Positions 903-2,820 of a stretch of 64,000 bases of DNA are shown one piece after another; within the stretch, counting starts at the first letter, position 1; each line of letters begins with the position of its first letter. Source of the DNA: the human T2T-CHM13v2.0 reference genome, Homo sapiens; the NCBI RefSeq assembly GCF_009914755.1, contig NC_060925.1. One strand, given 5' to 3'. Both the position numbers and the translations under genes were made by a program. The notes beneath the pieces are model-generated. The model searched no databases. It was given only the letters and a program-made list of their open reading frames with translations, and was not told where the DNA came from.

Positions 903-2290
903 TTTTTTTTTTTTTTTTTTTTTTTTTTTTTTTTTTTTTTTTTTTAGAATCTGGAGCTTACTTATCATGATTTTTTTTTTTTTTTTTATCATACTTTAAG
1001 TTTTAGGGTACATGTGCACCTTGTGCAGGTTAGTTACATATGTATACATGTGCCATGCTGGTGCGCTGCACCCACTAACTCGTCATCTAGCATTAGGTAT
1101 ATCTCCCAATGCTATCCCTCCCCCCTCCCCCGACCCCACCACAGTCCCCAGAGTATGATATTCCCCTTCCTGTGTCCATGTGATCTCAATGTTCAATTCC
1201 CACCTATGAGTGAGAATATGCGGTGTTTGGTTTTTTGTTCTTGCGATAGTTTACTGAGAATGATGATTTCCAATTTCATCCATGTCCCTACAAAGGACAT
1301 GAACTCACCATTTTTTATGGCTGCATAGTATTCCATGATGTATATGTGCCACATTTTCTTAATCCAGTCTATCATTGTTGGACATTTGGGTTGGTTCCAA
1401 GTCTTTGCTATTGTGAATAATGCCACAATAAACATACGTGTGCATGTGTCTTTATAGCAGCATGATTTATAGTCATTTGGGTATATACCCAGTAATGGGA
1501 TGGCTGGGTCAAATGGTATTTCTAGTTCTAGATCCCTGAGGAATCGCCACACTGACTTCCACAATGGTCGAACCAGTTTACAGTCCCACCAACAGTGTAA
1601 AAGTGTTCCTATTTCTCCGCATCCTCTCCAGCACCTGTTGTTTCCTGACTTTTTAATGATTGCCATTCTAACTAGTGTGAGATGGTATCTCATAGTGGTT
1701 TTGATTTGCATTTCTCTGATGGCCAGTGATGATGAGCATTTTTTCATGTGTTTTTTGGCTGCATAAATGTCTTCTTTTGAGAAGTGTCTGTTCATGTCCT
1801 TCGCCCACTTTTTGATGGGGTTGTTTGTTTTTTTCTTGTAAATTTGTTTGAGTTCATTGTAGATTCTGGATATTAGCCCTTTGTCAGATGAGTAGGTTGC
1901 GAAAATTTTCTCCCATTTTGTAGGTTGCCTGTTCACTCTGATGGTAGTTTCTTTTTCTGTGCAGAAGCTCTTTAGTTTAATTAGATCCCATTTGTCAATT
2001 TTGTCTTTTGTTGCCATTGCTTTTGGTGTTTTGGACAGGAAGTCCTTGCCCATGCCTATGTCCTGAATGGTAATGCCTAGGTTTTCTTCTAGGGTTTTTA
2101 TGGTTTTAGGTCTAACGTTTAAATCTTTAATCCATCTTGAATTGATTTTTGTATAAGGTGTAAGGAAGGGATCCAGTTTCAGCTTCCTACATATGGCTAG
2201 CCAGTTTTCCCAGCACCATTTATTAAATAGGGAATATACACAATAAAATTTATTTAAAAAAATAAAGACCCTATTTAATAAATGGTGCTG
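903..2290 (-). mobile_element. Young 5'-truncated L1 (L1PA2/early L1HS-like) with short 3' transduction and complex 5' junction
   Basis: Uninterrupted ORF2 C-terminus 1193-2053 ending FSLIGGN; near-consensus 3'UTR with GAG at the Ta-diagnostic triplet; T43 (903-945) and T17 (971-987); TSD ctgagtcttt at 896-905 and 2288-2297. Confidence 0.95.
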
Positions 2291-2297
2291 AGTCTTT

Positions 2298-2820
2298 ATT
2301 TTTTTAAATAAATTTTATTGTGTATATTTAAGGTATACAACATGATATTAGGCGATGCATAGAGATTGCAAAATGGTTACTATCATGAAGTAAATTAACT
2401 ATCATGAAGTGAATATCCATCATCTTGTTATCCATTATGTTTGTTTTTGTGGCAAGAGGAGATAAAATCTCACTTTGCAAGAATTCCAAATACAGCCCAA
2501 TGTTGTTGCCTATACTCCTGATGTTGCACATTAGATCTCTAGAGTTATTCATTCAACCTATTTGGTATGATACTTTGTATCCTCTGACCTACATCTCTTC
2601 AATTCCCCCTCCCATCACCACTGTTTTACTCTCTAACTCTGTATATTTTACTTTTAAAAACGTTTTTCTATGTCTGGCTTATTTCACTTAGCATGTCCTC
2701 CAGGTTCATCCACGTTGTGGCAAATGACAAGATCTTTCTTTTAAAAGGCTAAATAATATTAGCCATGGTTCCTTTATCCAATTATCCATCAACAGACACT
2801 TAGGTTGTTTCCATCTCTTG
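2298..2820 (-). mobile_element. Old L1MA 3' end
   Basis: tttattgtgtatatttaaggtatacaacatgat...tgcacattagatctctaga...ggcttatttcacttagcat. Confidence 0.85.

What the first reader, a model, noticed from the sequence alone, without database searches (positions are those of the whole stretch)
2211..2328. Double template-switch (A-B'-A'-B) at the 5' junction of the young L1
Seen: A is the L1 end cagcaccatttattaaataggg (2211-2232). B' (2233-2269) is the exact 37-bp reverse complement of the target flank B (2292-2328). A' (2269-2290) is the exact 22-bp reverse complement of A. The joins have microhomologies aat, c and ctg. All ~55 extra bases are therefore locally templated, from both the target and the new cDNA, and form two mutually exclusive hairpins. 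Inference: iterative synthesis and switching (ORF2p template jumping or Pol-theta-type joining) completed the insertion. This is an unusually legible record of the poorly understood 5' joining step.
Basis: partly seen in the sequence, partly recalled or inferred. Interest (0 to 1): 0.82.

Follow-up and report, generated by a model that had tools for sequence, protein, structure and literature searches.

The report
Templated inverted filler at L1 junction
A truncated L1 retrotransposon on human chromosome 1 is joined to its target through 55 extra bases that are exact backwards copies of the neighbouring target DNA and of the L1 end, a natural example of a messy joining step already seen in cell-culture experiments.

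Summary
A (2211-2232) and A' (2269-2290) are a perfect 22-nt inverted repeat. B' (2233-2269) and B (2292-2328) are a perfect 37-nt inverted repeat, interleaved A-B'-A'-B. They are the two longest exact inverted repeats in the 64-kb window, and 30 shuffles never exceeded 14 nt. The element is a minus-strand, 5'-truncated L1 (989-2232) with a poly-A tail and a 10-nt target-site duplication, CTGAGTCTTT (896-905, 2288-2297). All 55 extra bases (2233-2287) are templated, and the joins overlap by AAT, C and CTG. AAT is genuine L1 sequence, since 20 of 20 sampled copies continue that way. B' copies target sequence on both sides of the first-strand nick, so its template was most likely the intact minus strand. 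Best reading: the reciprocal target 3' end primed on L1 RNA (twin-priming-like), snapped back on itself for 37 nt, then annealed to the cDNA end. The enzymes cannot be told. Comparable junctions are in print: templated or inverted genomic DNA at L1 insertions, R2 "snap-back" junctions, and zebrafish LINE extra nucleotides. It is a clear germline specimen of a known kind, not a new mechanism. The L1 is 98.4-98.8% identical to its nearest copies, which suggests an old insertion rather than a recent one. Reads and empty alleles could not be checked.

The parts
896..905 (+). Left copy of the target-site duplication, CTGAGTCTTT, directly before the poly-T (the poly-A on the L1 strand)
   Evidence: Longest common string between the left flank and the junction region
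903..945 (-). Outer poly-A tail (a pure run of 43 T on the + strand; its first 3 T overlap the duplication)
946..970 (-). 25-nt non-L1 spacer between two poly-A runs; a possible short 3' transduction
   Evidence: one other genomic match with 2 mismatches, and no L1 beside it
971..987 (-). Inner poly-A tail of the L1 (17 T on the + strand)
989..2232 (-). 5'-truncated L1 body of about 1.25 kb (3' part of the element). Its last 22 nt are arm A (2211-2232). The truncation point is ambiguous by 3 nt (AAT, 2233-2235)
   Evidence: 98-99% identity to 39 other copies listed; 98.4-98.8% to the 4 nearest. L1 continues AAT in 20 of 20 sampled copies
2233..2269 (+). B': exact reverse complement of target flank B. 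It includes 6 nt of the duplication (GTCTTT) and 31 nt beyond the first-strand nick
   Evidence: (I1). Only self-matches in the genome
2269..2290 (+). A': exact reverse complement of the L1 end A. It shares C with B' and CTG with the duplication
   Evidence: (I2)
2288..2297 (+). Right copy of the target-site duplication, CTGAGTCTTT (7-10 nt, given the CTG overlap with A')
2292..2328 (+). B: the original target flank and the template source of B'. From about 2295 it is part of an old repeat that runs collinearly in + orientation
   Evidence: 39 paralogous matches at 73-85% identity start at about query 5-26 and run on in + orientation

Best explanation
The 55 extra bases were made while this L1 was being inserted, during the 5' joining step, mainly by processing of the reciprocal target end (the minus strand).

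Shown: the L1 was inserted by target-primed reverse transcription, primed from the + strand at ...GTCTTT/A. The second strand was cut 10 nt away, leaving a minus-strand 3' overhang that ends ...AAAGACTCAG-3'.

Inferred steps:
1. That 3' end paired through CAG with CUG in the L1 RNA and was extended 19 nt to ...AATAGGG. This twin-priming step makes the strand complementary to A'.
2. The new 3' end, freed from the RNA, snapped back on its own strand with a single G:C pair and copied 37 nt of itself. This produced the B/B' duplication.
3. Its end ...TATATT-3' paired through ATT with the AAT-3' end of the first cDNA. Each strand then copied the other, which finished second-strand synthesis and filled the + strand across B', A' and the duplication.

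The polymerase at steps 1-3 could be ORF2p, which does RNA- and DNA-templated synthesis, template jumping and hairpin extension in vitro. For steps 2-3 it could also be a host end-joining polymerase such as Pol theta. The sequence cannot tell them apart.
For: - The structure lies exactly between the L1 truncation point and the start of the duplication, with no untemplated base.
- The L1 bases after GGG are AAT in 20 of 20 sampled copies. The A/B' overlap therefore needs a cDNA end that carried AAT, which exists only during insertion.
- G and C at 900 and 902 cannot come from a poly-A tail. The first-strand nick therefore lies right of 902 (2294 in the right copy), and B' (the copy of 2292-2328) spans it. 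Only the minus strand is continuous there.
- A' abuts the full 10-nt duplication through CTG. This is what is expected if the untrimmed reciprocal 3' end primed on L1 RNA.
- B in + orientation is ancestral, because 39 old paralogs are collinear with it. B' is therefore the derived copy.
- Published support, from passages read: twin priming uses microhomology at the reciprocal end and preserves the duplication, and inversion junctions carry 1-10-bp duplications in 10 of 32 cases. Three L1 insertions carried inversions of genomic DNA at the reciprocal end, and three carried sequence templated from nearby genomic DNA, attributed to processing of the reciprocal end (PMC11702581).
- ORF2p shows DNA-directed synthesis, non-templated addition, template jumping and hairpin extension (PMC10830420).
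Against: - Step 1 copies the same 22 nt of L1 RNA that the first cDNA also copied. Classical twin priming inverts a segment upstream of the direct one, and published duplications at the inversion junction are 1-10 bp, not 22-25.
- Both cDNAs stop within 0-4 nt of each other, which needs an extra assumption such as a broken RNA 5' end or a block at that place.
- Step 2 rests on a single base pair. It also needs the minus strand to be single-stranded over 37 nt, through resection or strand displacement, and neither leaves a trace.
- The order of steps and the enzymes are inferred from one sequence.
- No reads, other assemblies or orthologous empty sites could be examined.
- The arms are identical, which gives no information on when they arose. 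At about 0.7% divergence per copy, under one difference in 118 nt is expected.
Confidence: 0.6

Rival explanations
1. Insertion-time event carried out by the cDNA end on the + strand. The first cDNA left the RNA at ...GGGAAT, annealed through AAT to the + strand of the target at 2326-2328 and copied it back to 2292, making B'. It then snapped back on itself with one C:G pair and copied A, making A'. Finally it annealed through CTG to the minus-strand overhang. This is closest to what the first reader described.
For: The same three overlaps (AAT, C, CTG) fit this route. [quoted passage not shown] ORF2p extends hairpins efficiently (PMC10830420). This route explains without further assumption why A' ends exactly where A ends.
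Against: B' contains GTCTTT from the left of the first-strand nick and 31 nt from its right. On the + strand these lie on two different molecules after nicking, and the left one is the primer of the cDNA itself. A continuous + strand template exists only on a sister chromatid or homologue. The + strand would also have to be unpaired 31 nt inside the duplex on the side whose 5' end is the one normally resected away.
Confidence: 0.17
2. Post-insertion rearrangement. The L1 first had a simple junction. A later replication template switch between strands, or hairpin-driven repair, inserted the inverted copies.
For: Strand-switch events create inverted duplications at AT-rich, partly palindromic sequence, and B contains small palindromes (I8 and I9). 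The arms are identical, which would fit a recent event.
Against: The 55 nt fall exactly between the L1 end and the first base of the duplication. Copying the opposite strand of a simple junction would give B'-TCAG-A', but TCAG is missing, so three switches are still needed. The first of those would have no microhomology, whereas the AAT overlap is explained only if L1 bases beyond GGG were present. Identical arms are also expected for a filler as old as the L1.
Confidence: 0.08
3. Assembly or sequencing fold-back artefact: the extra 55 nt are not in the real chromosome.
For: Perfect short palindromes are a known form of library chimera. No reads could be inspected here.
Against: An artefact would not be expected to land exactly on the L1/duplication boundary with microhomology at all three joins and an intact duplication. 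The structure is interleaved from two sources rather than a simple fold-back. That a consensus of many long reads would not carry a single-read chimera is general knowledge, not tested here.
Confidence: 0.03

Closest known systems
Twin priming / 5'-inverted L1 insertions (model recalled as Ostertag and Kazazian 2001; described in PMC11702581, passages read; PMC2837659 seen in the search listing only)
   Same: An inverted L1 segment lies directly next to the upstream target-site duplication. A short microhomology (CTG) lies between the reciprocal 3' end and the L1 RNA. The full-length duplication is preserved.
   Different: The inverted segment is only 22 nt. It duplicates the very end of the direct segment instead of lying upstream of it; published junction duplications are 1-10 bp. 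In addition, 36 nt of inverted target DNA sit at the inversion junction.
Non-canonical L1 insertions with inverted or templated genomic DNA at the reciprocal end (Mendez-Dorantes et al. preprint, PMC11702581)
   Same: Extra sequence at the insertion is templated from genomic DNA beside the integration site, and the authors attribute it to processing of the reciprocal end before ligation.
   Different: Those are de novo events in an induced cell-culture system: 3 with inversion and 3 with templated sequence. Their exact architectures are in supplementary figures S9 and S10, which I could not see, so I cannot say whether any interleaves a flank copy with an L1 copy as here. This one is a germline copy in a reference genome.
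'Snap-back' 5' junctions of R2-protein-mediated transgene insertion (PRINT; PMC11371274)
   Same: DNA-templated synthesis gives an antisense copy of the cDNA or of nearby target DNA before the 5' junction forms.
   Different: A different retroelement (R2, site-specific). There the snap-back is ascribed to the cDNA 3' end, whereas here the geometry points to the target's reciprocal end. Here two sources are combined in one junction.
5' extra nucleotides of zebrafish ZfL2 LINEs (Kajikawa, Yamaguchi and Okada 2012, not held; summarised in PMC4760211)
   Same: Extra nucleotides at the 5' junction are deduced to be templated from genomic and/or LINE DNA flanking the junction, through annealing of the two ends.
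   Different: A different LINE clade and host cells. According to PMC4245944, such extra nucleotides were rarely seen with that element in HeLa cells. I have not seen the lengths or orientations in the original paper.
Pol theta templated insertions in alternative end joining (PMC4912351 and PMC11724301, abstracts in the search listing only)
   Same: Short inverted, locally templated insertions are made by fold-back of a 3' tail on itself, with 1-3-nt microhomologies and repeated rounds of priming.
   Different: Those occur at ordinary double-strand breaks without reverse transcription. Dependence on Pol theta cannot be tested from this sequence.

Membership tests
[quoted passage not shown] | Poly-A tail at the 3' end of the element | tested here: met
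   T17 at 971-987 next to the L1 3' end and T43 at 903-945 on the + strand
[quoted passage not shown] | Target-site duplication flanking the insertion | tested here: met
   CTGAGTCTTT at 896-905 and 2288-2297
[quoted passage not shown] | First-strand nick at a T-rich/A site resembling TTTT/AA (consensus recalled) | tested here: inconclusive
   The inferred nick is ...TCTTT/ATTTTTTT. It is T-rich but not the exact consensus, and its position is ambiguous by up to 3 T
Twin priming (5' inversion) | Inverted L1 segment joined to the upstream duplication by microhomology | tested here: met
   A' (2269-2290) overlaps the duplication by CTG
Twin priming (5' inversion) | The inverted segment comes from L1 RNA upstream of the direct segment, with only a small deletion or duplication at the inversion junction | tested here: not met
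   A' is the same 22 nt as the end of the direct segment, and 36 nt of target-derived sequence lie at the junction. Published duplications are 1-10 bp (PMC11702581)
Templated (snap-back) insertion at an end-joining junction | The inserted bases are an exact copy, direct or inverted, of sequence within a short distance of the junction | tested here: met
   55 of 55 extra bases are covered by exact reverse complements of sequence within 100 nt
Templated (snap-back) insertion at an end-joining junction | Microhomology at each switch | tested here: met
   AAT, C and CTG
Templated (snap-back) insertion at an end-joining junction | Dependence on a particular polymerase (Pol theta or ORF2p) | not testable with these tools
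   Needs genetics or biochemistry

The most novel reading that the evidence does not exclude
The junction is a germline fossil that fixes the order of events in L1 5' joining. Second-strand cleavage came first. The untrimmed reciprocal 3' end was then used for reverse transcription on an L1 RNA that ended (broken) at this point. The same end next carried out DNA-templated snap-back synthesis before it found the first cDNA. This would mean that one polymerase complex, plausibly ORF2p, handles the reciprocal end through RNA- and DNA-templated rounds in vivo. If many old and young L1 junctions carry the same nick-spanning signature, reference genomes could be mined to measure how often the reciprocal end, rather than the cDNA end, does the searching.
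Probability: 0.25. Interest if true: 0.55.

Novelty: new member of a known kind. Interest (0 to 1): 0.4.

Why it matters
How the 5' end of a new L1 copy is attached to the chromosome is the least understood part of retrotransposition. Single junctions whose every base can be assigned to a template are useful, because they limit which DNA end did the priming. Here the inverted target copy crosses the first-strand nick, which points to the reciprocal target end rather than the cDNA end. That agrees with recent cell-culture data and suggests a simple criterion (does the inverted flank copy span the nick?) that could be applied genome-wide. The locus itself lies in an intron of a long non-coding RNA, and I found no sign of function. 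The 37-bp perfect palindrome arm is a potential hairpin but has evidently been tolerated.

Tried and rejected
- Empty site from paralogs. Both flanks are old repeats but belong to different families. Six paralogs examined do not run from one flank into the other. This gives only the ancestral orientation of B, not the empty site.
- Source of the 25-nt spacer. The only other match (2 mismatches) has no L1 beside it, so this is unresolved.
- Base rate. I meant to examine the 5' sides of all 39 related copies. In those 20, 12 reach full length and 8 break earlier. None of the 20 has an exact inverted repeat of 10 nt or more that involves the L1 end within 200 nt of the breakpoint. L051 has several in a TA-rich flank, and L054 and L062 have one 10-nt pair each away from the junction. 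For copies with a 5' inversion, the breakpoint found is the inversion junction, not the outer junction, so fewer than 20 true 5' junctions were seen. The sample is too small to set a rate.
- Papers not held: Kajikawa et al. 2012 and Gilbert et al. 2005.
- Searches for print reports of this exact architecture found none closer than PMC11702581. Subscription papers and supplements were not searched.
- Chance origin was considered and rejected.
- A plus-strand-only route was considered and put second, because of the nick-spanning argument.

Full report
**What is there.** The + strand of window 2211-2328 reads A (22 nt, L1 antisense end), B' (37 nt), A' (22 nt, sharing one C with B'), one 'a', then B (37 nt). 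The repeat finder reports arms 2233-2269/2292-2328 as 37 nt and 100% complementary, and arms 2211-2232/2269-2290 as 22 nt and 100% complementary. A script confirmed both and showed that neither can be extended. In the whole 64-kb window there are only 8 exact inverted repeats of 14 nt or more with loops of 100 nt or less. These two are the longest, and the next is 17 nt in AT-rich sequence. In 30 shuffles that kept local composition, 28 had none and 2 had a single one of 14 nt. The junction sequence occurs once in the assembly, and other genomic matches cover only the L1 part. As single-stranded DNA the region folds at -34 kcal/mol against -9.7 +/- 2.5 for shuffles, using the B'/B stem.

**The element.** From 989 to 2232 the + strand is L1 antisense. 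The element lies on the minus strand and is cut short at its 5' end after about 1.25 kb. It is 98-99% identical to the 39 other copies listed, out of 7324 first-look candidates of which 40 were scored. Exact counts against the four nearest copies are 15-20 mismatches in 1245 aligned bases, or 98.4-98.8%. On the L1 sense strand, the 3'-UTR trinucleotide I recall as diagnostic reads GAG. I recall that as the state of subfamilies older than the human-specific ones. The subfamily assignment rests on memory, not on a call. At its 3' end the element has T17 (971-987), a 25-nt non-L1 spacer (946-970) and a pure T43 (903-945). The longest string shared by the left flank and the junction is CTGAGTCTTT at 896-905 and 2288-2297. 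This is the target-site duplication: 10 nt, or 7-10 nt given that CTG could also be read as the end of A'. The 'a' at 2291 belongs to it. The extra bases are thus 2233-2287 (55 nt), and all are covered by B' and A'.

**The three joins.** I fetched the first 20 of the 12,264 exact genomic copies of the 22-mer A, in chromosomal order, with flanks. All 20 continue AAT after GGG (18 AATC, 2 AATT). The AAT at 2233-2235 is therefore both the next L1 sequence and the start of B', a 3-nt overlap. B' and A' share one C (2269). A' and the duplication share CTG.

**Which copy of B is original.** The right flank from about 2295 onwards is part of an old interspersed repeat. Thirty-nine paralogous matches at 73-85% identity start at query positions 5-26 and run on collinearly in + orientation. 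B is therefore ancestral and B' is the derived copy. The left flank belongs to another old family whose paralogs end their match at 902-905 and continue differently. The paralogs therefore do not show the empty site.

**When it arose.** Four points favour the time of insertion.
- The filler lies exactly between the L1 truncation point and the first base of the duplication.
- The AAT overlap needs L1 bases beyond GGG, which a finished simple junction (GGG followed by CTGAG) would not contain.
- Copying the opposite strand of a simple junction would give B'-TCAG-A', but TCAG is absent. A later strand-switch therefore needs as many switches and has less microhomology.
- If the 'real' junction had been A joined to GTCTTT, the CTG plus A that restore the full 10-nt duplication would be a coincidence of roughly 1 in 256. 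This figure is my estimate, not a tool result.

The identity of the arms says nothing either way. At the divergence seen, less than one difference is expected in 118 nt.

**Which end did the work.** G and C at 900 and 902 cannot come from reverse transcription of a poly-A tail. The first-strand nick on the + strand therefore lies between 902 and 905, which is 2294-2297 in the right copy. B (2292-2328) thus spans the nick. After nicking, its left 3-6 nt sit on the fragment that primes the cDNA and its right 31-34 nt sit on the other fragment. Only the minus strand is continuous across it. The simplest route has three steps.
1. The minus-strand 3' overhang ...AAAGACTCAG-3' pairs through CAG with CUG of the L1 RNA and is extended 19 nt to ...AATAGGG (a twin-priming step).
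2. This end snaps back on its own strand with one G:C pair and copies 37 nt.
3. Its new end ...TATATT-3' pairs with the AAT-3' end of the first cDNA, and both strands are completed.

Reading the minus strand from 2335 to 2200 gives exactly this order: target, CAG-CACC...GGG, TCTTT...TATATT, CCCTATTT.... The steps are inferred; the templates are shown.

Three weaknesses remain.
- Both cDNAs cover the same 22 nt and stop within 0-4 nt of each other, which suggests a broken RNA 5' end or a block there.
- The snap-back rests on one base pair.
- The minus strand must have been single-stranded over 37 nt.

The rival in which the cDNA end does everything explains the common end of A and A' more simply. 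It needs a + strand template that is continuous across the nick, so I rank it second.

**What is known.** From passages of PMC11702581:
- 5'-inverted L1 insertions keep 12-18-bp duplications and show microhomology.
- Inversion junctions have 1-10-bp deletions (22 of 32) or duplications (10 of 32).
- Three insertions came with inversions of genomic DNA at the reciprocal end, and three contained sequence templated from nearby genomic DNA. The authors attribute both to processing of the reciprocal end.
- The figures that show these cases are supplements I could not see.

From other papers:
- PMC4760211: extra nucleotides at zebrafish LINE 5' junctions appear templated from genomic and/or LINE DNA flanking the junction. 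The original paper is not held.
- PMC10830420: ORF2p performs DNA-directed synthesis, non-templated addition, template jumping and hairpin extension.
- PMC4912351 and PMC11724301 (abstracts in the search listing only): Pol theta extends ends templated in cis or in trans, and fold-back inverted insertions form at breaks in yeast.

My three searches found no report of this exact interleaved architecture. They do not cover subscription journals or supplements.

**Base rate.** Of the 39 related L1 copies, I could fetch the 5' sides of 20. Twelve reach full length and 8 break earlier, several continuing in L1 sense sequence, that is, as 5' inversions. None of the 20 has an exact inverted repeat of 10 nt or more that involves the L1 end at the breakpoint. 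The sample is small, and for inverted copies it does not reach the outer junction.

**Verdict.** This is a real and fully templated complex 5' junction, formed at insertion with high probability. It combines a very short twin-priming-like inverted L1 copy with a snap-back copy of the target. It belongs to a kind already described in experimental systems, so it is a new member of a known kind. Its added value is the nick-spanning argument that points to the reciprocal end. Reads, other assemblies and orthologous sites, which would settle artefact, timing and age, were out of reach here.

Noticed in passing
window 903-987: The L1 has two poly-A runs (T17 and a pure T43 on the + strand) separated by a 25-nt non-L1 spacer, which looks like a short 3' transduction. 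The only other genomic match to the spacer (2 mismatches, G000:C1:158843918-158843942) has no L1 beside it in this assembly. A pure 43-nt homopolymer is long for an element that differs by 1.2-1.6% from its nearest copies.
   Followed up: partly
window 740-905 and 2295-2480: The two flanks belong to two different old repeat families at roughly 71-94% identity to their paralogs. The left family's matches end at 902-905 and the right family's start at about 2295-2300. The L1 therefore went in at or very near an older repeat boundary, in a T-rich stretch.
   Followed up: partly
L043-L062 (20 related L1 copies): Of 20 close relatives, 12 are full length. At least four of the 8 shorter ones (L044, L047, L049, L057) continue past the breakpoint in what looks like L1 sense sequence, as expected for 5' inversions. 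This was judged by eye from the junction strings, not aligned.
   Followed up: no
window 46114-46377 and 56089-56189: These are the only other exact inverted repeats of 14-17 nt in the window. They lie in TA-rich, low-complexity sequence.
   Followed up: no
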